From IMG/VR virus record IMGVR_UViG_3300033388_006651, positions 64,001 through 128,000 of that record: DNA of 64,000 bases; one strand, given 5' to 3'. The DNA is from a virus. The notes under the pieces are model-generated. The model was not told where the DNA came from and made no database searches. It saw only the letters and a program-made list of their open reading frames with translations. Position numbers and translations under genes: made by a program. Shown here piece after piece: positions 7,612 through 18,190 of this stretch (position 1 is the first letter of the stretch; each line of letters begins with the position of its first letter).

Positions 7612-7686
7612 GCCCTTGTAGCTCAGTGGAAGAGCGCTTCCTTGGTAAGGAAGAAGTCACGAGTTCGATTCTCGTCTTGGGCTCCA
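7612..7686 (+). tRNA. tRNA-Thr(GGU)
   Basis: CTTCC TTGGTAA GGAAG; CCA end. Confidence 0.93.
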
Positions 7687-7837
7687 GGAACGCAGGACCC
7701 TCGTTCGAAGGTCACAAGCAAAAGGTAAAGACATCTGTTTTTCACACAGAAGACTGCGAGTTCGATTCTCGCCTTCCCCGCCATTTATGGGGAAGTGGTC
7801 ATAAGACGCACTCACCCCGCACACTCTCCTGCGTTCC
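7687..7837 (+). ncRNA. CACAAGC-module RNA carrying a circularly permuted tRNA-Glu(UUC)
   Basis: Outer stem GGAACGCAGGA/TCCTGCGTTCC; tRNA 3' part (7724-7783, ends GCCA) precedes the 5' part GGGGAAG-TG-GTC (7789-7804). Confidence 0.8.
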
Positions 7838-7854
7838 TTAATTTTCACCCTAAT

Positions 7855-10245: not shown

Positions 10246-12114
10246 ATGGACAACAAAGAAACACTCGGACCCGCAGAGACCATCATCCAGTCACTGCTGG
10301 CCTACTCAGATCACATCTACCACGGCCGCCCCGGCGTCGTGGTGCCCGACGCGCGATCCACGACCGGAGTGCGATGGGACCCCGTCACCCACAAGGTCGG
10401 AGAGGACGGCGTCAAGACCGTTCTTCGCCTCACGCGAAACGGCAAGAAGACCATTCGTACCGAGATCGGCACGATGAACGGCGACAATCGTGTGAAGAAC
10501 GCGGGTGCCGATGTCGGCCTGTACCGCAAGAGCGGCCTCTTCCCAGAGGTTGCCCTGTGGTTCTACAAGCAGATCGCTGAGGTGTGGACGCTCGACAACG
10601 AATTCGCTGCTCGGTGGGCGTCGTACGCCTTCCGTCAGGAGCACCGTGACCTCAAGGTCATGCTCGCTGCGTTCATGCTCGTTCAGTCGCGTAAGGGCGA
10701 CCCCGTCATGGACGGGGGTGAGCGTCTGTTCGACGACGAGGACTACCGTGACGTGGGCGAGGCCATGGTCCTTCTCCTTGAGAAGGGCAACGACCTCAAC
10801 CCGAAGCTCCTGCTTCGGATCTACGATGTCCTGAACCTGCCCGAGATCGCAAAGATCAACCACGAGCTCGGCTTCGGCAAGTCCGCCAAGCGTCCGTTCC
10901 TCGGTCGTTGGCCCAAGGCGATCGACAAGTACCTTCGGTACCGCGAGGAGAACCCGAAGCTGCTCGAAGGGCTCGTCAACAAGGCTGCTTTCGGCAACAC
11001 CGTCAAGACTCTGGCTCGGCGTATCGGCTACAAGCCAACGTCCGACAAGTTCTTCGCTACCCTACGCTGGAAGCAGAAGCAGGCTGAAGACGGGCGTCGT
11101 GAGATGGCCATCGGTAAAGCCGTGAGGGCTGCTGAGTCGTGGGATCACCTCGACGAAGCCGGTGTTTGCGAGCTCATCGAGAAGAACAAGCCTGGCTGGA
11201 AGCGGATCGTGGGTCTCCTTCCTGCGAAGATCGGGGTCACCCGTGCGGTGATGGCTGCGACCATCGAGTCGGGCGGTCTCTCGGACAAGGATCTCATCAT
11301 CCTCACTCCAACGATCGAGGATCTTGGTCTGTTCAAGGTCCAGGAGATCAAGGCGCGTCATGCTGCGGCTCTCGCCAAGGCAAGCGACATGCGTGCGGCT
11401 AACATCGCCCGCAACGTTCGGTCCAAGGATCTCAAGGAGGAGATGGAGACCGGTGCCGACAAGGCAGCTCAGAAGGCTGCTGAGGAGGTCATCAAGAACC
11501 TGCGCCTCTACGTCGTCATCGACCGTTCGGCGTCGATGCAGGGAGCACTGGAGAAGGCGAAGCCACTGATCGCCAAGCTCATTCAGGCAATCCCAGCCGA
11601 GCGTCTGCACGTTTCGACGTTCAACACGATCGGTAAGGTGATCACCTTCAAGCACCACTCGACCGCTGGGGTCGAGGCAGCTTTCCGGGGCGTCAACGCC
11701 GGAGGGGGCACGGTGCACGCAGAAGGTGTTCGGGTTCTGGCTCAGTTCCCGCCTGCGGCAGACGAGGACTCCCTGATGATCTTCATCGGGGACGAGGGCG
11801 AGCGTCGGCACTTTGCCGAAGCTGTGGAGGCATCTGGTCTCCGTCCCCTGGCCTTCGGGCTCCTCGCCACGGTGGGTCCTCGTTGGGGTCGCGGTCAGGC
11901 GATTCGGGACACGGCTGCTCGACTGGACATCCCGTGCTTCGAGATCGATGACCGCACCTTTGATGGCGACCCGTACGCCATCCCGCGTACGATCAGGAAC
12001 CTGATCGCGGCTACCCCTGTGGGGGTGAACACCGGTCGTCGCGTCGTCCCGCGCGTGACGCTGGTGGGTCAGATCCTGGAGACCGAGATTCTCCAGAAGC
12101 CCAACTGGGCATAG
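10246..12114 (+). CDS. Ro60/TROVE-like protein with C-terminal vWA domain
   Basis: Long basic helical N-terminal region plus VIDRSASM MIDAS, GGGT, FIGDEG; the Ro60 relationship is inferred from architecture and ncRNA context; start reassigned to 10246. Confidence 0.6.
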   Translation: MDNKETLGPAETIIQSLLAYSDHIYHGRPGVVVPDARSTTGVRWDPVTHKVGEDGVKTVLRLTRNGKKTIRTEIGTMNGDNRVKNAGADVGLYRKSGLFPEVALWFYKQIAEVWTLDNEFAARWASYAFRQEHRDLKVMLAAFMLVQSRKGDPVMDGGERLFDDEDYRDVGEAMVLLLEKGNDLNPKLLLRIYDVLNLPEIAKINHELGFGKSAKRPFLGRWPKAIDKYLRYREENPKLLEGLVNKAAFGNTVKTLARRIGYKPTSDKFFATLRWKQKQAEDGRREMAIGKAVRAAESWDHLDEAGVCELIEKNKPGWKRIVGLLPAKIGVTRAVMAATIESGGLSDKDLIILTPTIEDLGLFKVQEIKARHAAALAKASDMRAANIARNVRSKDLKEEMETGADKAAQKAAEEVIKNLRLYVVIDRSASMQGALEKAKPLIAKLIQAIPAERLHVSTFNTIGKVITFKHHSTAGVEAAFRGVNAGGGTVHAEGVRVLAQFPPAADEDSLMIFIGDEGERRHFAEAVEASGLRPLAFGLLATVGPRWGRGQAIRDTAARLDIPCFEIDDRTFDGDPYAIPRTIRNLIAATPVGVNTGRRVVPRVTLVGQILETEILQKPNWA

Positions 12115-12125
12115 GAGTAAACCTC

Positions 12126-13058
12126 ATGGGATGGAGAGACCTAATCACAACCAAGGAGGAGACCACCACTCTTCCGTGGACCGGAGGACGGTCTCTCCAC
12201 TCCGGGTCCCGAACCTTCAAGCTCGGGGCCCGGCCTCGGGACTTTGGCTGGTACACCTTCGACCTCGAAGGCAACAAGGCCAAGGACCCGAAGCCCGCTG
12301 ACCCAGTTCCTGAGATTCTCAAGAGCTCCGTCAAGGGCTATCTGGTCGGGGACCGTCTGGTCCCCGATGACACCCGGATCGATCCCGACCCGGCCAAGAT
12401 CATCAACTACTCGGAGAAGGTCTACCTCCTTCCCGAAGAACTCGACCGGTTCTCGCGTGTGCGAGCCGGCCGCATTTACCCCGAGGGGCCTCTCATTTTT
12501 CTTGAGCAGGAATTCCCCCTCGGCCCCGAGGACGAAGTCATGGAAGCATTCTTCGACAACAAGATCAGCACCTTCGGTATCCGAAGCGTCGCGCCCGCAC
12601 TCGATGCGGCTTTCCGTATGGAGGTCTACCAGCGTCAGCAGGCAGAGTTCCGTCGGCAAGAACTGATCCGGCTTCGTGCCGAGGAGGAGGCACGTCTTGC
12701 CAAGGAGGAGCGCCGCAAGGAGATGATCGAGAAGCTCGGGGATGGCGCTGGCCGTCGTGCGATGGCCCAGGAAAACTTCGGTGAAGCCGCTCGGGCTGCC
12801 CTCATGGTCGGTGGTGCTCAGTACCTCGACCACCGAAAGGGAGGGCGTAAAGGTGAATGGGTCGTCAAGTATCGCGTCGATGGGCAACGCCTTGAGTGCG
12901 TGTGCGACACCAACCTCCAGATCATCGACGCAGGCGTTTGCCTTGTCGATCACGGAACCAACGAAAAGGGCGACACCTACTTCACCCTCGAATCACTGCC
13001 TGCGGTCATCCGTCAGGCCATCCGCGAGCACAAGCTCGTCGTATGGAGACACATCTAA
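12126..13058 (+). CDS. hypothetical protein of the vWA-JAB-Ubl-E1 operon
   Basis: AGGAG RBS; coiled-coil middle; ECVCD..DAGVCL C-terminal region. Confidence 0.75.
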   Translation: MGWRDLITTKEETTTLPWTGGRSLHSGSRTFKLGARPRDFGWYTFDLEGNKAKDPKPADPVPEILKSSVKGYLVGDRLVPDDTRIDPDPAKIINYSEKVYLLPEELDRFSRVRAGRIYPEGPLIFLEQEFPLGPEDEVMEAFFDNKISTFGIRSVAPALDAAFRMEVYQRQQAEFRRQELIRLRAEEEARLAKEERRKEMIEKLGDGAGRRAMAQENFGEAARAALMVGGAQYLDHRKGGRKGEWVVKYRVDGQRLECVCDTNLQIIDAGVCLVDHGTNEKGDTYFTLESLPAVIRQAIREHKLVVWRHI

Positions 13059-13633
13059 TGGAATTCAAAGACATCAACATCAAGGCCGTCGGCACCGAGG
13101 TTCTCCTCGTGGGCGGCGTCTGGGCTGGCCAGGGTCAGACCTTCGTGTGCCTGTATCCGCAAGAGGAGCAGGAAGGGGACGTTCACGTCCTCGACATGAC
13201 CCGCGAGGATTGGGCCGCACTGCTTCGGCAGTCGGACCTGATGGAGACGGAAGTTCTGGCGAAGGCCGAGGACGGAAAACTCTACAAGGCCATCGCTCGC
13301 AAGAGCCAACGCAACATCGACCAGGGCACTTCCTGGAACGTGTTCCGACGGGACGGGTACGCCTGCCGCTACTGCGGCAACGACAAGATCCCCCTTACCG
13401 TGGACCACCTCGTGCTCTGGGAAGAGGGCGGTCCTTCTCTCGAGGAGAACCTCCTGTCCGCTTGTCGCAAGTGCAACAAGGTGCGTGGCAACACGCAGTA
13501 CGCGGACTGGCTCAAGCACCCCTTCTACCTGGGGAAGTCCAAGAACCTGACGCCCGAGGTCCGAGCCGCCAATGAGGCGATCCTCGGGACTCTCGACGCC
13601 ATCCCACGGCACACCAAGAAGAGGAAGCGATAG
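13058..13633 (+). CDS. HNH endonuclease
   Basis: VFRRDGYACRYCG...TVDHL...GG....NLLSAC.KCN; start at ATG 13058. Confidence 0.85.
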   Translation: MEFKDINIKAVGTEVLLVGGVWAGQGQTFVCLYPQEEQEGDVHVLDMTREDWAALLRQSDLMETEVLAKAEDGKLYKAIARKSQRNIDQGTSWNVFRRDGYACRYCGNDKIPLTVDHLVLWEEGGPSLEENLLSACRKCNKVRGNTQYADWLKHPFYLGKSKNLTPEVRAANEAILGTLDAIPRHTKKRKR

Positions 13634-13635
13634 TC

Positions 13636-14007
13636 ATGATCGAAACAGGTCTAGTCGTAACTGACGCTGGTCCCGTCTACTGGCACCTGCCGCGAGGCAG
13701 GACCGGTGGCAGCCTTCCCGACAGCCGCTCGCTGTGGGACGTGCTGTGGGAACTCCGTAGGGAACCGTTCCTGGGAGTCGCCCACAGCCATCCGGGCTCG
13801 GGAATTCCCGGGCCGTCCATGACGGACATCACTACCTTCTCCGGGGTCGAGCTCGGGCTTGGCCGTCGGCTCACCTGGTGGATCACCAGCTCATCACACA
13901 TGATCGGCCTGAACTACGCAGGACCGACCAAGTACAACTACAACTCTTTCCCCGTGAAGGAGCCCTACTGGGCTGCGCAACTGCGGGAGTTCTCGAAAGG
14001 ACAATGA
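13636..14007 (+). CDS. JAB/MPN+ metalloprotease
   Basis: N-terminal E (ETG) and HSHPGSGIPGPSMTD JAMM motif. Confidence 0.85.
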   Translation: MIETGLVVTDAGPVYWHLPRGRTGGSLPDSRSLWDVLWELRREPFLGVAHSHPGSGIPGPSMTDITTFSGVELGLGRRLTWWITSSSHMIGLNYAGPTKYNYNSFPVKEPYWAAQLREFSKGQ

Positions 14008-14267
14008 ACATGGAAAACAACGAAGCACGCGTCAACATCACCTACGGGGGGAACAACGGGGATCTCCCTGACCCCGTCCTGTTCGACTCCACTGATGGCG
14101 ACATCAAGGGGTGGATCACGGAAGCTGTCGCAGGGGGTTCCGTCCCCGGTATCCCGGCGGACGGCAACGTGGATTTCACGGATTTCGTCGTGGATCGCTT
14201 CTCGGCTAACGCTGAGCGCGACTACAATTTAATTCAGATAAGACCTAAAACTCCATTCGGGTGTTGA
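14004..14267 (+). CDS. ubiquitin-like (beta-grasp) protein
   Basis: About 87 aa with a beta-beta-alpha-beta-beta pattern ending IRPKTPFG-C, between JAB and E1. Confidence 0.65.
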   Translation: MNMENNEARVNITYGGNNGDLPDPVLFDSTDGDIKGWITEAVAGGSVPGIPADGNVDFTDFVVDRFSANAERDYNLIQIRPKTPFGC

Positions 14268-14280
14268 CCGAAGACACCGT

Positions 14281-15243
14281 TTGGTCTACGATCAAACGGT
14301 GCCAGAAGATCTCGACCTGGATGCTCTCGTGAGCCGGTACGAGGAGGGGGCGAGTGCCGCTTCTCTCGGCCGGGATTTCGGGGTCAGCACCTGGACGGTT
14401 CTGAACCGTCTCAGGGGTGCTGGGATCCGTATTCGTTCCAACAAGGAGCAGAACGAGAAACGGCTCGATCTGGATGAGGTGCAACAGCGGCGTCTCGTTG
14501 AGATCGTAGACGGGCTCCTCCTTGGAGATGGGTCCATTGATCCCAAAGGGAGTTTGCGCATCGAACAGACTCAGGACCATTTGGGTTGGTTCGATTCGAT
14601 CCAACAAGCCCTTGGGAGTGTCGGGGCGGTTTCGCGACGCACCCCTGTCGCACCTCGCGTCCGTTTCATTAAGGATCATGAGGCGCACGGCAAAGGAGGC
14701 GCCGTCTTTTACACGCCCTGCTACGTTGAGCTCCAAGAGCAGCGGCAGCGGTGGTATCCGAAAGGAAAGAAGCGCGTCCCCGAGGATGTGCTCCTCACGC
14801 CTCTAAGCATTGCCTACTGGTTCTGTGGGGATGGTTCCTATGACAAGCCGGGATCGCTCGTGTTCTACACCAACTCTTTTTTCAAGAAGGAGACAGAGCG
14901 TTTGGCTCGGGGCCTTACCAAGCTCGGTGTTCGGGCCCGGTGTCGTCCTGTGGGACAACACCGATACCGCGAATGGAAAATCCACATCCTTCGGCGTGAC
15001 GATGCCCTGCGGCTTCGTGAACTGATGGGGGATCATGTGCCGGAGTGTTTCCAGTACAAGTTCGTATACGTCCGAGCGGCCATTCCACCAGGTTCTACGA
15101 CCGCTAAGCTGACTTTCACGCAGGCCCAGGAAATCCGGGAGCGTACAAAGAACGGGGAAACCCAGACGGCGCTGGCCAAGGAATTCGGGGTCTCCCAAAC
15201 CGCGATCCGCCAGATCGTTCGCGGGAAAGTCCACAAGCCATGA
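14281..15243 (+). CDS. free-standing LAGLIDADG homing endonuclease with HTH domains
   Basis: GLLLGDGS and AYWFCGDGS motifs; WYPKGKK.VP. Confidence 0.85.
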   Translation: MVYDQTVPEDLDLDALVSRYEEGASAASLGRDFGVSTWTVLNRLRGAGIRIRSNKEQNEKRLDLDEVQQRRLVEIVDGLLLGDGSIDPKGSLRIEQTQDHLGWFDSIQQALGSVGAVSRRTPVAPRVRFIKDHEAHGKGGAVFYTPCYVELQEQRQRWYPKGKKRVPEDVLLTPLSIAYWFCGDGSYDKPGSLVFYTNSFFKKETERLARGLTKLGVRARCRPVGQHRYREWKIHILRRDDALRLRELMGDHVPECFQYKFVYVRAAIPPGSTTAKLTFTQAQEIRERTKNGETQTALAKEFGVSQTAIRQIVRGKVHKP

Positions 15244-15464
15244 AACCCAAACACGAGAAAACTCTTGAGGTAGCAAAGCGCTGCCTGGAGTACCCGGAGA
15301 CAGAGCTGAGCCGTTTGGAGATCAAGAACCTCTTACTCTGTTACAGAGATGCAATAGAGAGCCGCTACGAGACTTGGGAGATCGCTGAGGCTTGGGACAC
15401 GGATAGTCCGATGGGCACGTTGAGGCGGTTGGGACAGAACCGAGAAAAGGAAATGGGAACGTGA
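15240..15464 (+). CDS. hypothetical protein
   Basis: ATGA-coupled 74-aa ORF. Confidence 0.5.
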   Translation: MKPKHEKTLEVAKRCLEYPETELSRLEIKNLLLCYRDAIESRYETWEIAEAWDTDSPMGTLRRLGQNREKEMGT

Positions 15465-15729
15465 AAATTACGATCATGAAAATTACGATCATCGATTGCA
15501 GGGACACTCGTGTGTCTAAGGAGCAGAACTCGTGATCGGGAAATACATTCTGGCCGGCAATACCTCCCACCTGTGGGGGTGCGAAATACATGTCTGCTCT
15601 CTTTGTGGGCAACATCAAGACTCGGCCGAAGAAACATGTCCTGAAGGGCGCCGCATGATGGGTTTTCGAATTTCGACTGGGGATGCCAAAAGCATCAAGG
15701 AGATACCAACATGAAAATTACGATCATCG
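15461..15729 (+). repeat. direct repeats of the ThiF gene start (TGAAAATTACGATCA) x3
   Basis: Copies at 15462, 15477 and 15712. Confidence 0.85.
15532..15714 (+). CDS. small Cys-rich hypothetical protein
   Basis: HVCSLCG...TCP; coupled to the ThiF start. Confidence 0.45.
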   Translation: MIGKYILAGNTSHLWGCEIHVCSLCGQHQDSAEETCPEGRRMMGFRISTGDAKSIKEIPT

Positions 15730-16280
15730 GAGTCGGAGCACTGGGCTCACACCTCGTGCAAGCTCTTCGGAACGAGAAGGTGACCCTCAAGGTCATCGAC
15801 TTCGACCGCGTCGAGATGAAGAACGTCGCTTCTCAGTTTCACTTCAAGAACGGAGTGGGCAAAAAGAAGGTCGATGCTCTCAAGCAGGCGATGCAATTCT
15901 GCTACGGCCGGAAGATCGAGATCGTGGGCAACAAGCTCACGGCGGACAACGTTGACCAGCTCCTGGGCGACGCTGACCTGCTCGTGGACTGCCTGGACAA
16001 CGGAGAAGCCCGGACGCTCGTCCAGGGCTTCGCTCGAGCCAATGGGGTGCCGTGCGTGCACGGAGCTCTTGCGGCCGATGGTGGCTTCGGTAGGGCCGTA
16101 TGGACTTCCGGTTTTGTTATTGACAGCGAGACATTGGGTGCGGCAACATGTGAAGACGGTGCCTTCCTCCCGTTCATCCAGCTCGTTGCCACACGCCTCG
16201 CGTACGTCGTCCAGCGATTCCTCCAAACTGGGGAGAAGCACAACTTCAACATCTTCCCCGGCGGCGTCACTAAATTCTAG
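15711..16280 (+). CDS. ThiF/MoeB/E1-like adenylyltransferase
   Basis: IIGVGALG, IDFDRVEMKN..SQ, GKKKV, VDCLDN..AR; candidate catalytic Cys in ATCED. Confidence 0.9.
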   Translation: MKITIIGVGALGSHLVQALRNEKVTLKVIDFDRVEMKNVASQFHFKNGVGKKKVDALKQAMQFCYGRKIEIVGNKLTADNVDQLLGDADLLVDCLDNGEARTLVQGFARANGVPCVHGALAADGGFGRAVWTSGFVIDSETLGAATCEDGAFLPFIQLVATRLAYVVQRFLQTGEKHNFNIFPGGVTKF

Positions 16281-16284
16281 GGCC

Positions 16285-17265
16285 GTGTGTCGAGGGACCC
16301 GGCGCACTGCTCACCTCGACATTGACGCGCTCGTGCGGGGTTACGAAACCGGCGACAGTGCCCAGACGCTGGCGAAGAAATTCAACACTGGACGTTCCAC
16401 CGTACTCACCCGGTTACGGGAAGCCGGGGTGCGAATTCGGCGTCCTTCTGAATGGGAAGAGAAACATCTGGTTCTCCTCCCCCAACACGAGGAACCTTTC
16501 ATCGAGCTCCTTGATGGCCTCATGCTCGGAGACGGCACTCTCCCTCGTGACGGGGGGCTTCGCATTGAACAGAGCCATGTGCGTCACGGGTGGTTGAAAG
16601 ACATCCAACAGGAGCTGCGGGGTTTTGGGGTGAAGAGTACGATGGACGAAGTTATACGGCCCGAAAGGGCCCGCAAAGACGGACGAATCCTTTCGGCCTA
16701 TAGGGGGTTTCTTTTGCGCACTCCTGCTTACGTTGAACTTCGCTCACAACGACAGCGATGGTATCCAGGTGATGTAAAACGCATTCCTGACGATGTGCGT
16801 ATCACCAAAAAATCTGTTGCGGCCTGGGTAAGTGGGGACGGCACAGGAGGTAAGAAGGGCACGCTGGTTCTTTGCACCGATGATTTCACCGAAGAAGGAG
16901 TCGGTCTGCTGATTGACCGACTCAAAGAGGTTTTTAATGTTAAGGCTCGACGCGTTTCAGGTGAACGACCTCGAGTCGGCCTTTACCGGAAAAATGATGT
17001 GCTCCGACTTCGTGAGGTCCTTCTCCCACACATGTCGAAATGCTGTCGGTACAAGTTCCAACACGCCCGTGGCGCCCAAAGGAAAGGGAAACTCCCCGAG
17101 GCGTCCGTGCAGGCTATTCGTGGAAAGTACGACGAGGGGGTCACGTTGAGCGTGATCGCAAAGGAGCATGGGCTGAGTCGGTCAGCCGTCAACAACATTG
17201 GTCTGCGGAAAGTGTACAAGTGGGTGGCTGAGACGGCCGTTCCAGCCACCGTCGAAGAAAGTTGA
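16285..17265 (+). CDS. free-standing LAGLIDADG homing endonuclease, paralogue of 14281
   Basis: GLMLGDGT, AAWVSGDG, YVELRSQRQRWYP shared with the paralogue; start uncertain. Confidence 0.85.
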   Translation: MCRGTRRTAHLDIDALVRGYETGDSAQTLAKKFNTGRSTVLTRLREAGVRIRRPSEWEEKHLVLLPQHEEPFIELLDGLMLGDGTLPRDGGLRIEQSHVRHGWLKDIQQELRGFGVKSTMDEVIRPERARKDGRILSAYRGFLLRTPAYVELRSQRQRWYPGDVKRIPDDVRITKKSVAAWVSGDGTGGKKGTLVLCTDDFTEEGVGLLIDRLKEVFNVKARRVSGERPRVGLYRKNDVLRLREVLLPHMSKCCRYKFQHARGAQRKGKLPEASVQAIRGKYDEGVTLSVIAKEHGLSRSAVNNIGLRKVYKWVAETAVPATVEES

Positions 17266-17275
17266 AAAAAAGTGG

Positions 17276-17304
17276 TTGACTTCCCTCAGCCCCCGATCCA
17301 ATCT
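17276..17304 (+). promoter_or_regulatory. sigma70-like promoter of the ncRNA array
   Basis: TTGACT-N17-CAATCT. Confidence 0.55.
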
Positions 17305-17317
17305 GTTCGTCCAGGCT

Positions 17318-17401
17318 GTTTCCCACGCGCAGGTCTCACAAGCACAACCCCGGTCCGAAGTGACCGGGACACTGAAGCCTCCCAGACCGCGCCCTCGAAA
17401 C
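17318..17401 (+). ncRNA. CACAAGC-module RNA with a simple hairpin payload
   Basis: GTTTC/GAAAC P1, GGTCT/AGACC P2, CACAAGCA. Confidence 0.6.
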
Positions 17402-17414
17402 TACCTACAACTAA

Positions 17415-17547
17415 GCCGGATATGACCCGTGGTGGGTCACCAACCTTCCAAGTTGGCTAACAATCCGACACCTGCACTCACCCCTTCACAGGGGTACTCG
17501 GCAAAATGTCTACAAGCATCTGCCTGGTTCGACTCCAGGATCCGGCT
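17415..17547 (+). tRNA. tRNA-Gly(UCC) with a ~60-nt module insertion in the variable loop
   Basis: GCCGGAT/ATCCGGC-U, CCAAC CTTCCAA GTTGG, CCTGG TTCGACT CCAGG. Confidence 0.75.
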
Positions 17548-17552
17548 CTAAA

Positions 17553-17678
17553 GAAGCAACCACTGCCCGTAAGGCTCACAAGCAAAGTAGCTCAGTGTAG
17601 AGCGTCTGTCCTGAAAACAGAAGGTCGCGGTTTCATCACCGTCCTTGCAACAAACCAGCTTTTCCACTCGGTCGCTTC
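17553..17678 (+). ncRNA. CACAAGC-module RNA with a degenerate tRNA-like payload (CCTGAAA loop)
   Basis: GAAGCAACC/GGTCGCTTC P1, GGCT/AGCT P2, TAGCTCAG..AGAGC D arm. Confidence 0.72.
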
Positions 17679-17716
17679 TTAACTTTTTCACTCAGCAGCA
17701 GTACACAACATAACAT

Positions 17717-17848
17717 GGAGGACATGACCCCGATGGGGGGTCGCCCGACGGTAAATCGGTAAAACCGACACCACCACTCGCTTCTTCACGGAAGCACTCG
17801 GCGAATGTCTACAAGCAACTCTTGGTTCGAATCCAGGGTCCTCCACCA
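17717..17848 (+). tRNA. tRNA-Tyr(GUA)-like with a ~60-nt module insertion in the variable loop
   Basis: GGAGGAC/GTCCTCC-ACCA, CGGTAAA loop (G33), GGTTCGAATCC. Confidence 0.72.
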
Positions 17849-17978
17849 GAAGCAACCACCACGCCTAGACTCACAAGCGAAAGTAGCTCACTCGGTAGAG
17901 CGCGTCCCTGATAAGGATGAGGAGCTGGTTCGATCCCGGCCCTTTGCAACAAAACAGTCTTTCGACTCGGTCGCTTCT
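17848..17978 (+). ncRNA. CACAAGC-module RNA with a tRNA-Ile(GAU)-like payload
   Basis: Same P1 as 17553, AGACT/AGTCT P2, CGTCC CTGATAA GGATG. Confidence 0.75.
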
Positions 17979-17986
17979 AACTTTTC

Positions 17987-18134
17987 GATCAACGCACCAG
18001 ATCAATCTCACAAGCAAATTGTTGGTTCGATTCCAACCTTCCCCACCTATGGGGAAGTGGGCAAATGGTAAAGCCACCGGTATATTAAACCGGCGTTTCA
18101 AAACGCAACTCCAGGTTTTTCACTCGCGTTGATC
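17987..18134 (+). ncRNA. CACAAGC-module RNA with a circularly permuted tRNA-like payload
   Basis: GATCAACGC/GCGTTGATC P1; order is T arm, CTTCCCC-loop-GGGGAAG, D arm, anticodon arm. Confidence 0.78.
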
Positions 18135-18146
18135 AACTAACCCCGT

Positions 18147-18190
18147 CCCCGGGCGCTGCTCCTCAAAGAGCCGCCCGGGGATTTCTTTTT
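18147..18190 (+). terminator. intrinsic terminator closing the ncRNA array
   Basis: CCCCGGGCG...CGCCCGGGG followed by ATTTCTTTTT. Confidence 0.75.

What the first reader, a model, noticed from the sequence alone, without database searches (positions are those of the whole stretch)
17415..17848. tRNA-Gly(UCC) and tRNA-Tyr(GUA) with the inside-out module in the variable loop
Both have complete acceptor, D, anticodon and T arms and the expected discriminators (U73, A73). Each carries a ~60-nt insert GACA..CACTC-[hairpin with TTCAC]-ACTCGGC..TGTC-TACAAGCA. Both also share unusual GACCC/GGGTC D arms. The insert is too short for a group I intron and in the wrong position for a canonical tRNA intron; standard tRNA finders would probably miss these genes.
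Basis: seen in the sequence. Interest (0 to 1): 0.8.

Follow-up and report, generated by a model that had tools for sequence, protein, structure and literature searches.

The report
tRNA-shaped Y-like RNAs, Ro60 handle
Two tRNA look-alike genes in a giant phage each carry the same folded 50-base extra arm, which is most likely a permanent docking handle for the phage's own Ro60-like RNA-binding protein rather than an intron, making them an undescribed tRNA-shaped form of Y RNA.

Summary
At 17415-17547 (Gly-UCC-like) and 17717-17848 (Tyr-GUA-like) there are complete cloverleaves. Each has 60-66 extra bases between the anticodon stem and the T stem. Standard finders miss both.

The insert core, about 53 nt, is a real structured element: a 4-bp helix P1, a conserved internal loop, a covarying hairpin P2 and an unpaired YACAAGM tail. 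I found 72 distinct copies in 37 related giant-phage loci. Sixty sit at this same place in a tRNA-like body. All 82 model matches lie on the strand of one conserved gene.

That gene (window 10246-12114) has no Pfam TROVE match. Its predicted N-terminal fold matches only Ro60 proteins at the top of an unbiased search (Z 11.5, 9.9, 9.2, next 6.3), and it ends in a vWA domain.

My best reading (about 0.55) is that these are Y-RNA-like partners of a divergent phage Ro60, with the handle kept in the mature RNA. They are tRNA-topology relatives of YrlA but do not match its Rfam model. Excision as an intron is less likely, because the leftover linkers would give no canonical variable loop and no splicing motif is present. 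There are no expression or binding data.

Earlier notes of this scan describe similar handle-bearing tRNA look-alikes beside Ro60-like genes on other DNA. I did not check those notes.

The parts
17415..17547 (+). Gly(UCC)-like tRNA-shaped RNA carrying the handle in the variable region
   Evidence: Sequence. Acceptor inverted repeat I10. MFE fold is the cloverleaf plus arm, z -3.5. ARAGORN calls tRNA-Gly(tcc) after in-silico removal of the insert.
17465..17518 (+). Handle (module) copy 1: CC, P1 GACA/TGTC, internal loop CACTC / ACTCGGCAAAA, P2 hairpin ACCCCT/AGGGGT, tail TACAAGCA
   Evidence: Model R1 71.1 bits, E 1.7e-16. Model R2 65.9 bits. Covariation.
17717..17848 (+). Tyr(GUA)-like tRNA-shaped RNA carrying the handle; encoded A73-CCA; anticodon loop CGGTAAA (G33)
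   Evidence: Sequence. Acceptor inverted repeat I11. Fold z -3.0. Orthologues in L086, L088 and L090 share the same loop.
17765..17817 (+). Handle copy 2; contains GGCGAATG (17800-17807), which fits the YrlA motif GNCGAAN0-1G
   Evidence: Model R1 72.1 bits, E 8e-17. The motif is defined in PMC4201824.
10246..12114 (+). Gene for a 622-aa divergent Ro60-like protein (TROVE-like helical-repeat fold plus C-terminal vWA), the proposed partner
   Evidence: Pfam hits only VWA_2. Foldseek's only full-length hits are Ro60 entries. The N-terminal 415 aa searched against 48,161 chains gives 1yvp Z 11.5, 2nvo Z 9.9, 9l5y Z 9.2, next 6.3. More than 1,300 homologues exist.
17329..17412 (+). 'Unit 0': the same handle right-side-out with only a small hairpin as cargo (YrlB-like)
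   Evidence: Read from the sequence. CTCACAAGC at 17335. Conserved in L087 and L088.
17551..17680 (+). tRNA-like RNA (Rfam tRNA hit 17581-17650) whose leader and trailer form the handle; terminal stem AAGAAGCAACC / GGTCGCTTCTT
   Evidence: Inverted repeat I5, 91% complementary. Rfam tRNA 42.4 bits.
17848..17978 (+). Second leader/trailer-handle tRNA-like RNA (Ile-GAU-like, 17877-17948)
   Evidence: Inverted repeat I6. ARAGORN and Rfam hits.
17987..18134 (+). Permuted tRNA-like RNA in the order T arm, acceptor closed by loop ACCTAT, D arm, anticodon arm; closed by handle stem GATCAACGC / GCGTTGATC
   Evidence: Inverted repeats I8 and I12. Partial Rfam tRNA hit 18051-18113. The stem covaries in L087.
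18146..18190 (+). Probable terminator of the RNA array: 10-bp GC stem followed by TTTCTTTTT
   Evidence: Inverted repeat I4, 100% complementary, and sequence. The simple scanner did not flag it because the loop is 16 nt.
17276..17281 (+). TTGACT, a -35-like hexamer about 50 nt upstream of unit 0; TTGACA sits at the same place in relatives
   Evidence: Seen in the sequences of the window, L087, L088 and L089. Not flagged by the scanner, so this is an inference.
7686..7838 (+). 'RNA A': another handle-closed permuted tRNA-like RNA 2.4 kb upstream of the Ro60-like gene; its 5' strand reads GTTCGAAGGT, which by my recollection resembles the metazoan Y RNA 5' strand GGUCCGAAGGU
   Evidence: 12-bp perfect terminal stem. 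Partial Rfam tRNA hit 7717-7772. GGUCCGA is named as the Ro60-contacted motif in PMC4201824.

Best explanation
The two genes encode tRNA-shaped Y-RNA-like RNAs. Each is a near-complete tRNA body with an open 7-bp acceptor end, D arm, anticodon arm and canonical T arm. Its variable region holds a roughly 53-nt structured handle joined by short unpaired A-rich linkers.

The handle has this layout: CC, 4-bp helix P1, an internal loop with conserved YCUC and ACYC, covarying hairpin P2, the P1 return strand, then unpaired YACAAGM.

I propose that the handle stays in the mature RNA and docks the phage's own divergent Ro60-like ring protein, encoded 5 kb upstream on the same strand. The tRNA part would be the effector end, presented to tRNA-binding factors such as synthetases, modification enzymes, anticodon nucleases or the ribosome. 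This parallels the way YrlA's tRNA-like domain is thought to work.

The topology is YrlA turned inside out. Here the protein-binding stem is closed by a hairpin and the acceptor end is free. In YrlA the acceptor is closed and the binding stem carries the RNA's ends.

Shown here: the anatomy, the conservation and covariation, the linkage to the gene, and the Ro60-like predicted fold. Inferred: binding to that protein, retention of the handle, and the cellular role.
For: 1. The handle is a conserved RNA structure.
- With 11 sequences, 90% of cells pair and 9 of 12 pairs show double changes, reached by 0 of 500 shuffles.
- With 72 distinct copies, P2 is 96.7% paired, 244 cells carry compensatory changes, and pairing falls to 32-49% when partners are slid.

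2. Position and linkage.
- 60 of 72 copies lie between a tRNA 5' part and a T arm, with at least 6 of 7 acceptor pairs.
- All 82 R2 matches in 1.03 Mb, searched on both strands, are on the strand of the Ro60-like gene, in 37 loci.
- DNA pattern scans that do not use the protein found true copies only on contigs carrying that gene: 4 of 4 viral contigs and one MAG contig with the gene 3.4 kb upstream on the same strand.

3. The gene product looks like Ro60.
- Only Ro60 entries match the model over its full length.
- The N-terminal domain searched without Foldseek gives Ro60 from Xenopus, Deinococcus and Thermus phage as the top three hits (Z 11.5, 9.9, 9.2), then 6.3.
- A vWA domain follows, as in Ro60.

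4. Known Y RNAs lie within about 4 kb of Ro60 on the same strand. They carry a tRNA-like domain and a stem-loop-stem with a (GN)CGAA motif (PMC4201824; PMC12135203). The Tyr-like handle has GGCGAAUG in its internal loop.

5. The same handle occurs in other topologies that an intron cannot explain.
- It forms the leader and trailer of tRNA-likes, and the closing stem of permuted tRNA-likes.
- In L089:14858-14912 it sits where the anticodon arm should be.

6. Retention fits better than excision.
- The linkers left behind total 5 to more than 15 nt and vary in length, so no canonical 4-5-nt variable loop would result.
- In Salmonella YrlA the two modules are likewise joined by short unpaired loops (10.1101/312249).

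7. The bodies depart from working tRNAs. U8 is present in 20 of 60 copies, against 638 of 764 canonical tRNAs in the same loci. The Tyr-likes have G33.

8. In two near-complete relatives (G002, G003), the anticodons called for their handle-bearing genes (Glu-UUC and Val-UAC; Met, Cys, Gly and Tyr) also occur in canonical tRNAs. They are therefore not needed to fill decoding gaps.
Against: - There are no binding, expression or end-mapping data. No RNA run was listed for this stretch.
- The Ro60 assignment rests on a predicted fold. Pfam TROVE does not match the window protein or any of 25 homologues. The PDB sequence profile search finds only vWA.
- Neither Rfam YrlA nor Y_RNA matches.
- The CGAA-type motif is present only in the closer relatives and is absent from the Gly-like copy (GGCAAAAUG).
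- Several features fit a chargeable, possibly decoding tRNA. Acceptors are perfect, many copies encode CCA, and most anticodon loops have U33 and a purine at 37. By my count, against E. coli identity rules recalled from memory, about two thirds of discriminators fit the anticodon.
- One 92%-complete relative (G001) has canonical tRNAs for 19 amino acids but none for Tyr. Its only Tyr-like gene carries the handle.
- The handle could instead bind another product of the conserved operon.
Confidence: 0.55

Rival explanations
1. The insert is a new kind of tRNA intron or processing cassette. A protein or RNA enzyme cuts on both sides of the handle and a ligase (RtcB-type, from phage or host) joins the halves to give ordinary tRNA-Gly and tRNA-Tyr. 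The same cassette at the ends of the permuted and leader/trailer forms would direct circularisation or end trimming, as in the permuted tRNA genes of Cyanidioschyzon and archaea.
For: - The position between the anticodon stem and the T stem is constant.
- After in-silico removal, ARAGORN of 72 copies as tRNAs.
- The same motifs flank a permuted tRNA whose acceptor loop begins with ACC (ACCTAT).
- G001 encodes two RtcB genes and has no other tRNA-Tyr.
- Many copies encode CCA.
Against: - No cut sites give a canonical product. The linkers outside the handle sum to 5 to more than 15 nt and vary between orthologues.
- There is no bulge-helix-bulge. P1 is 4 bp here but 7-8 bp in L096 and L115 (read from the sequences), and no outer helix exists.
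- No ribozyme or intron family matches at E<=10.
- The 146-kb fragment has no RtcB. G002, 94% complete, has neither RtcB nor an Rnl2-type ligase.
- One family member carries the handle in place of the anticodon arm.
- Conserved unpaired bases plus covarying helices fit a stable RNP site.
- U8 is lost in two thirds of copies.
- No insert-free copy of these scaffolds was noticed in the arrays I read; I made no systematic search.
Confidence: 0.15
2. They are working decoder tRNAs that keep a giant variable arm, an extreme form of class II tRNAs. The arm may recruit a protein that protects or regulates them, and they are charged and used on the ribosome.
For: - The cloverleaves are complete and the T loops canonical (TTCGANT in 54 of the 60 tRNA-embedded copies).
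- Many anticodon loops have U33 and a purine at 37, and discriminators often fit the anticodon.
- Bacterial tRNA-Tyr naturally has a long variable arm at this site (own knowledge).
- G001 lacks any other tRNA-Tyr.
- The anticodons recur: Gly-UCC 7, Asn-GUU 7, Met-CAU 6, Tyr-GUA 5.
Against: - A8-U9 replaces U8 in both window genes, and only 33% of the family has U8.
- G33 is conserved in the Tyr-likes of four phages.
- Several members have 8-nt, 6-nt or stop-reading anticodon loops.
- The anticodon changes on an otherwise constant scaffold between close relatives.
- G002 and G003 already have canonical tRNAs with the same anticodons.
- A roughly 50-nt rigid arm on long single-stranded linkers has no precedent in ribosome-active tRNAs (own knowledge).
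Confidence: 0.15
3. The handle is real but its partner is not the Ro60-like protein. It might bind another product of the conserved operon, such as the 310-aa unknown protein or the JAB / ubiquitin-like / E1 set. Alternatively it acts on its own as a ribozyme, a sensor or a packaging signal.
For: - The operon Ro60-like, 310-aa protein, (HNH), JAB, Ubl, ThiF-type E1 and then the RNA array is conserved as a block. Linkage therefore cannot single out one protein.
- The canonical Ro60-binding sequence is only weakly recognisable.
Against: - Ro60 is the one protein family known to pair with adjacent same-strand tRNA-like RNAs (PMC4201824, PMC12135203).
- Some arrays lie directly upstream of the Ro60-like gene rather than after the E1 gene (L128, L132, L123, L148).
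- No ribozyme family matches.
Confidence: 0.12
4. They are decaying tRNA pseudogenes disrupted by a repeated selfish element.
For: Two LAGLIDADG homing-endonuclease genes lie next to the array. tRNA finders miss both genes.
Against: - Stems are perfect, and compensatory changes keep P1, P2 and the tRNA stems intact across 37 loci at 50-90% protein identity.
- The insertion point is constant and the strand is always the same.
- The array lies between a conserved promoter-like site and a terminator-like hairpin.
Confidence: 0.03

Closest known systems
YrlA-type bacterial and phage Y RNAs with Rsr/Ro60 (Rfam RF02553; Chen et al. 2014, PMC4201824; Wang et al. 2018, 10.1101/312249)
   Same: - Small RNAs encoded a few kb from a Ro60-type gene on the same strand, often several in tandem.
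- One part mimics a tRNA with canonical T and D arms.
- The other part is a stem / internal loop / stem, with a (GN)CGAA-type motif in the closer relatives here.
- The two modules are joined by short unpaired linkers.
- M. smegmatis YrlA even acquires a free CCA end after RNase P cleavage.
   Different: - The order and topology are those of a normal tRNA: open acceptor, anticodon arm present, and the handle closed by a hairpin in the variable region.
- The Rfam YrlA model does not match. Its best hit in the genome scores 24 bits against a cut-off of 69, and that hit falls on tandem canonical tRNAs.
- The handle's conserved bases (YCUC, ACYC, YACAAGM) are not the published motif.
- The partner protein is too diverged for Pfam TROVE.
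Thermus phage phiLo Ro60 with Yrl1/Yrl2 (PMC12135203; PDB 9KOP, 9L5Y)
   Same: A phage-encoded Ro60 has adjacent Y-like RNAs with a 5'-3' stem flanking a loop that carries CGAA. 9L5Y is the third-best structural match to the protein here (Z 9.2).
   Different: As described in the passages I read, the phiLo Yrl RNAs are plain stem-bulge-stem RNAs, and no tRNA-shaped or anticodon-bearing form is mentioned there. The protein here is about 160 aa longer, and its model shows a beta-sheet segment at residues 30-94.
Class II tRNAs (Leu, Ser, bacterial Tyr, Sec) with a long variable arm
   Same: An extra helical arm emerges between the anticodon stem and the T stem of an otherwise standard cloverleaf.
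   Different: Natural variable arms are about 10-25 nt with no conserved internal loop (own knowledge). Here there are 60-66 nt containing two helices, conserved unpaired motifs and long linkers, and the arm occurs on Gly-, Asn-, Met- and Arg-type bodies that are never class II.
Non-canonical and permuted tRNA genes processed through bulge-helix-bulge motifs (archaea, Cyanidioschyzon merolae)
   Same: Inserts occur at unusual tRNA positions, and permuted tRNA-like copies sit in the same locus with matching flanks.
   Different: There is no BHB geometry, no splicing-endonuclease context and no consistent junction that would give a canonical tRNA. The setting is a bacteriophage genome.

Membership tests
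YrlA (Rfam RF02553) | Covariance-model score at or above 69 bits | tested here: not met
   Search of the whole 146.8-kb record. The best score is 24.4 bits, on tandem canonical tRNAs. The only match that touches the finding is 9.9 bits (E 6.8), spanning window 17798-17931. The cmscan at E<=10 lists no YrlA or Y_RNA match.
YrlA (Rfam RF02553) | Domain order T arm, acceptor closed by a loop, D arm, with the RNA's ends in the Ro60-binding stem | tested here: not met
   Both genes have the normal tRNA order with an open acceptor and an anticodon arm. The neighbour at 17987-18134 and RNA A at 7686-7838 do have the YrlA order.
Y RNA in the broad sense (Ro60 partner RNA) | Encoded close to a Ro60 orthologue on the same strand | tested here: met
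   The array starts 5.2 kb after the end of the gene in the window. The gap is about 2.6-3.6 kb in relatives that lack the homing endonucleases. All 82 model matches are on the gene's strand.
Y RNA in the broad sense (Ro60 partner RNA) | GNCGAAN0-1G / CGAA motif in the internal loop of a stem-loop-stem | tested here: inconclusive
   The Tyr-like copy has GGCGAATG (17800-17807). The Gly-like copy has GGCAAAATG. Relatives show CGAA, TGAA or unrelated bases.
Y RNA in the broad sense (Ro60 partner RNA) | Physical binding to Ro60 | not testable with these tools
   Needs EMSA or RIP. The complex-prediction tool takes no RNA chains.
Ro60 / TROVE proteins (the proposed partner) | Pfam TROVE (PF05731) sequence match | tested here: not met
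   No match in the protein, in the six-frame search of the record at E<=1, or in 25 homologues at E<=1.
Ro60 / TROVE proteins (the proposed partner) | Helical-repeat ring fold followed by a vWA domain | tested here: met
   The AF2 model of residues 1-415 (pLDDT 82.6) was searched against 48,161 chains. The top three are Ro60 entries: 1yvp Z 11.5 (295 aligned), 2nvo Z 9.9, 9l5y Z 9.2, and the next is 6.3. The vWA domain at residues 417-590 scores Z about 15. Whether the predicted repeat closes into a ring was not examined.
tRNA (Rfam RF00005, canonical elongator) | Model score at or above 29 bits, or detection by ARAGORN, as encoded | tested here: not met
   After in-silico removal of the insert, the Gly-like gene is called tRNA-Gly(tcc) in 59 of 176 deletions. 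The Tyr-like gene is called in none.
tRNA (Rfam RF00005, canonical elongator) | 7-bp acceptor stem, T loop TTCRANY, GG in the D loop | tested here: met
   The T loops are TTCGACT and TTCGAAT.
tRNA (Rfam RF00005, canonical elongator) | U8 and U33 | tested here: not met
   Both genes have A8-U9. The Tyr-like gene has G33, while the Gly-like gene has U33. Across the family U8 occurs in 20 of 60 copies, against 638 of 764 canonical tRNAs in the same loci.
Group I intron | Catalytic core of roughly 200 nt or more with P3-P9 helices, usually in the anticodon loop | tested here: not met
   The insert is 60-66 nt, lies in the variable region and matches no Rfam intron family at E<=10.
Bulge-helix-bulge (archaeal/eukaryal) tRNA intron | 4-bp helix flanked by two 3-nt bulges and outer helices | tested here: not met
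   No outer helix can form between the A-rich 5' linker and the YACAAGM tail. P1 length varies from 4 to 8 bp across the family (read from the sequences). This was judged by inspection of the alignments, not by a dedicated BHB scanner.

The most novel reading that the evidence does not exclude
The anticodon-bearing, handle-tagged tRNA look-alikes are baits. Each would present the anticodon loop of a tRNA that host defence nucleases or toxins attack. The recurring types are Tyr, Asn, Arg, Met and Gly, which by my recollection resemble the target lists of colicin E5/D-type, VapC-type and retron or PARIS-type effectors. The bait is tethered to a phage Ro60 ring, which may also recruit a host exonuclease. 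The RNP would then soak up, report or dispose of anticodon-nuclease damage, acting as an RNA-based counter-defence. The fast turnover of anticodons on a constant scaffold between related phages would be the arms-race signature.
Probability: 0.15. Interest if true: 0.85.

Novelty: new variant of a known kind. Interest (0 to 1): 0.7.

Why it matters
Y RNAs and Ro60 are conserved from bacteria to humans, yet what the tRNA-like end of bacterial Y RNAs does remains unknown. In this large family the effector end is a whole tRNA with a free acceptor end and a specific anticodon.

That gives concrete, testable handles:
- which synthetase, nuclease or ribosomal site each member engages;
- whether they are charged;
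- whether Ro60 is thereby brought to the translation or tRNA-damage machinery.

It also provides intermediate forms bearing on the proposal that Y RNAs descend from tRNAs. It extends Ro60 to a very diverged, widespread giant-phage clade that sequence models miss. And it warns annotators that 130-nt tRNA-shaped genes are invisible to tRNA finders.

Tried and rejected
- Megablast of 10 kb around the site against 50,697 phage records gave no match.
- The exact motif scan ACTCGGN{3,10}GTCTACAAGC over viral contigs gave 82 loci, all chance hits inside coding sequence.
- The search for related loci with the neighbouring macro-domain protein found no relatives.
- Rfam at E<=10 over the array and over RNA A found no ribozyme, intron, Y_RNA or YrlA match.
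- Sequencing runs: no RNA holder was listed.
- The promoter/terminator scanner flagged neither the conserved TTGAC(A/T) site nor the terminal hairpin.
- The PDB sequence-profile search found only vWA domains.
- The VIA re-alignment of the full-length model was filled by vWA hits. I therefore folded and searched the N-terminal domain alone.
- My first working idea was a small intron or processing cassette cut and re-ligated. I set it back after the linker-length table, the lack of any junction rule, the anticodon-arm-replacing member and the Ro60-like fold.
- The apparent pairing between 17329-17337 and 17467-17475 (I9) is not conserved in L087 or L088. I take it as a by-product of two handle copies resembling each other.
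Full report
**Where the window lies.** The window is bases 64001-128000 of a 146.8-kb IMG/VR giant-phage fragment that CheckV estimates at 28% complete. It carries many canonical tRNA genes.

**Observation.** I read the region directly.
- The Gly-like gene (17415-17547) and the Tyr-like gene (17717-17848) each have a perfect acceptor stem, seen as 8-nt perfect inverted repeats.
- Each also has a D arm, a 5-position anticodon stem with a 7-nt loop (CTTCCAA and CGGTAAA) and a canonical T arm.
- The discriminators are U73 and A73. The Tyr-like gene also encodes CCA.
- ARAGORN, Rfam at gathering score and Rfam at E<=10 miss both genes.
- The Gly-like RNA folds at minimum free energy into the cloverleaf plus a separate insert arm (z -3.5). 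The Tyr-like RNA keeps the acceptor, D, T and hairpin helices (z -3.0).
- With the insert deleted in silico, ARAGORN calls the Gly-like gene tRNA-Gly(tcc). It does not call the window's Tyr-like gene, but it calls its orthologues in two relatives tRNA-Tyr(gta).

**Finding relatives.** Exact-motif and single-protein searches led nowhere. The 622-aa vWA protein encoded at 10246-12114 has more than 1,300 homologues at 50-75% identity on giant-phage contigs of up to 619 kb. Its neighbourhood is conserved: this gene, a 310-aa unknown, an optional HNH, JAB, a ubiquitin-like protein, a ThiF-type E1, and then a 0.7-1-kb gene-free stretch. In each relative read (L085-L089) that stretch holds the same kind of RNA array as the window, behind a TTGAC(A/T) hexamer in the four arrays read in full (the window, L087, L088 and L089); three of the four (not L089) end in a GC hairpin with a T run. 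An alignment-based scan brought in 60 more loci.

**The insert is a structured, conserved element.**
- Eleven hand-picked copies gave this structure: CC, P1 (GACA/UGUC), an internal loop, the P2 hairpin, the P1 return strand and YACAAGCA. In it 90% of cells pair and 9 of 12 pairs show double changes, reached by 0 of 500 shuffles.
- Model R1 and the broader model R2 found 82 matches at E<=0.05, of which 72 are distinct, in 37 loci.
- On this larger set P2 is 96.7% paired with 244 compensatory cells. Pairing drops to 32-49% when partners are slid by 1-3 columns. This alignment was fitted to the model, so the numbers lean towards the structure. The hand alignment is free of that bias.
- Conserved unpaired bases are CC before P1, YCUC before P2, ACYC after P2 and YACAAGM after P1.
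- Sixty of the 72 copies sit between a tRNA 5' part and a T arm, with at least 6 of 7 acceptor pairs.
- After in-silico removal, 62 of 72 are called tRNAs with many different anticodons. Some recur: Gly-UCC 7, Asn-GUU 7, Met-CAU 6, Tyr-GUA 5, Arg-ACG 3.

**The same handle in other topologies.** Within the window's array the handle also appears right-side-out.
- Its two strands form the leader and trailer of the tRNA-likes at 17581-17650 and 17877-17948.
- They also close the permuted tRNA-like at 17987-18134, and RNA A at 7686-7838.
- Terminal stems of 9-12 bp take the place of the P2 hairpin.
- Unit 0 (17329-17412) carries only a small hairpin as cargo.
- In L089 one member has the handle where the anticodon arm should be.

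**The linked protein.** Pfam sees only a C-terminal vWA domain. TROVE does not match the protein, the record or 25 homologues.
- The AlphaFold model of the whole protein (pLDDT 78.7) has full-length Foldseek matches only to Ro60 entries: 9kop, 9nep, 2nvo, 1yvp and 9l5y, at E 1e-6 to 1e-4.
- vWA hits swamped the re-alignment, so I folded residues 1-415 alone (pLDDT 82.6) and compared the model with 48,161 representative chains without Foldseek.
- The top three are Xenopus Ro60 (Z 11.5, 295 residues aligned), Deinococcus Rsr (Z 9.9) and Thermus phage Ro60 (Z 9.2). The next hit is Z 6.3.

A TROVE-like repeat domain followed by vWA is the Ro60 architecture. I take the protein to be a highly diverged Ro60 relative, on fold evidence only.

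**Linkage.**
- All 82 model matches are on the strand of this gene.
- A three-block DNA pattern that does not use the protein found four viral contigs, all already known to carry the gene.
- The same pattern over 185,579 genomes gave one true hit. It is a contig binned with a Gemmatimonadota MAG, with two handle-bearing tRNA-likes 3.4 kb downstream of a 73%-identical copy of the gene on the same strand. The other eight hits are chance matches in coding sequence.

**Comparison with known Y RNAs.**
- Chen et al. 2014 found YrlA RNAs within about 4 kb of Ro60 on the same strand in more than 250 bacteria and 22 phages. These RNAs have a tRNA-like domain and a GNCGAAN0-1G motif thought to contact Ro60. 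M. smegmatis YrlA is cut by RNase P and receives CCA (PMC4201824).
- In Salmonella YrlA the two modules are joined by short unpaired loops (10.1101/312249).
- The Thermus phage phiLo Ro60 binds two adjacent Y-like RNAs that have a stem, a CGAA-containing bulge and a stem (PMC12135203).
- Here the Tyr-like handle carries GGCGAAUG in its internal loop, and RNA A carries GUUCGAAGGU.
- The motif is not kept across the family, and the Rfam YrlA model does not match.

These RNAs therefore work like Y RNAs by design and context but are not members of the curated YrlA family.

**Intron or permanent arm?**

Against excision:
- The linkers outside the handle are 3-15 nt on the 5' side and 0-10 nt on the 3' side, and they differ between orthologues. 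No junction rule gives a 4-5-nt variable loop.
- There is no bulge-helix-bulge, and P1 ranges from 4 to 8 bp.
- No ribozyme or intron family matches.
- RNA ligases are patchy. There is none in this fragment. G001 has two RtcB genes. G002, at 94% completeness, has neither RtcB nor an Rnl2-type ligase.
- The member in which the handle replaces the anticodon arm makes no sense as a spliced tRNA.

Against plain decoding:
- U8 is present in only 20 of 60 copies, against 638 of 764 canonical tRNAs from the same loci.
- The Tyr-likes of four phages share G33.
- Several members have 8-nt or stop-reading loops.
- G002 and G003 already have canonical tRNAs with the anticodons called for their handle-bearing genes.

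In favour of some tRNA-type activity:
- Acceptors are perfect, CCA is frequently encoded and most loops have U33 and R37.
- Discriminators often fit the anticodon.
- G001 has canonical tRNAs for 19 amino acids, but its only Tyr-like gene carries the handle.

**Verdict.** The most likely explanation (about 0.55) is a tRNA-topology Y-RNA-like family whose handle stays in the RNA and docks the phage's Ro60-like protein. The rivals:

| Rival | Probability |
|---|---|
| Excised cassette | 0.15 |
| True decoders with a giant arm | 0.15 |
| Handle with another partner or activity | 0.12 |
| Pseudogenes | 0.03 |

Binding, retention and function are inferences, because no transcript data were available. 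I found no description of such RNAs in the searchable literature, and that library is incomplete. Earlier notes of this scan report similar handle-bearing tRNA look-alikes beside Ro60-like genes in other phage genomes. They agree with this reading but are not independent evidence, and I did not check them.

Noticed in passing
L150:521-627 (-), = G001:C1:26521-26627: In the 619-kb relative there is a 107-nt Rfam tRNA match that ARAGORN misses. It has a normal acceptor stem and T arm but about 33 extra bases inside the D loop. These include CTCGG and TCAAGAA, which recall the handle. The anticodon loop also looks like 8 nt.
   Followed up: partly
G001 (record of L087/L093), whole genome: This 92%-complete relative has canonical tRNAs for 19 amino acids but none for Tyr. 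Its only Tyr-like gene is the handle-bearing one, with the 8-nt loop CATGTAAA (L087:14640-14790).
   Followed up: partly
window 12126-16280 and relatives L085-L089: A conserved block sits between the Ro60-like gene and the RNA array: a 310-aa protein with no family match, an optional HNH, a JAB/JAMM-like protein, a small ubiquitin-like ORF and a ThiF-type E1. An E1 plus Ubl next to tRNA-like RNAs could mean sulfur transfer to RNA or protein tagging. I did not examine this.
   Followed up: no
window 14281-15243 and 15874-17265 (LAGLIDADG domain from about 16500): Two LAGLIDADG homing-endonuclease genes with HTH domains are inserted in the window's operon. One lies before the E1 gene and one lies between it and the RNA array. 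They are absent from L087-L089, which accounts for the larger gene-to-array distance here.
   Followed up: partly
L128:6329-6380 and L144:430-480: Two relatives carry handle-bearing tRNA-likes whose anticodon is TTA, which reads the stop codon UAA. G003 also has a canonical-looking tRNA with anticodon TTA.
   Followed up: no
L182 (JBDHAB010000014.1, Gemmatimonadota MAG contig, 72 kb): A contig binned as Gemmatimonadota carries the Ro60-like gene (73% identity) and two handle-bearing tRNA-likes. It is either a mis-binned giant-phage contig or a hint to the host.
   Followed up: no
window 17581-17650 and 17877-17948: The two leader/trailer-handle tRNA-likes share an A-C mismatch at acceptor pair 6-67. 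After the discriminator A each continues with CA rather than CCA, so the 3' end reads GCAACA. The handle's AAGCA doubles as the start of the acceptor stem.
   Followed up: partly
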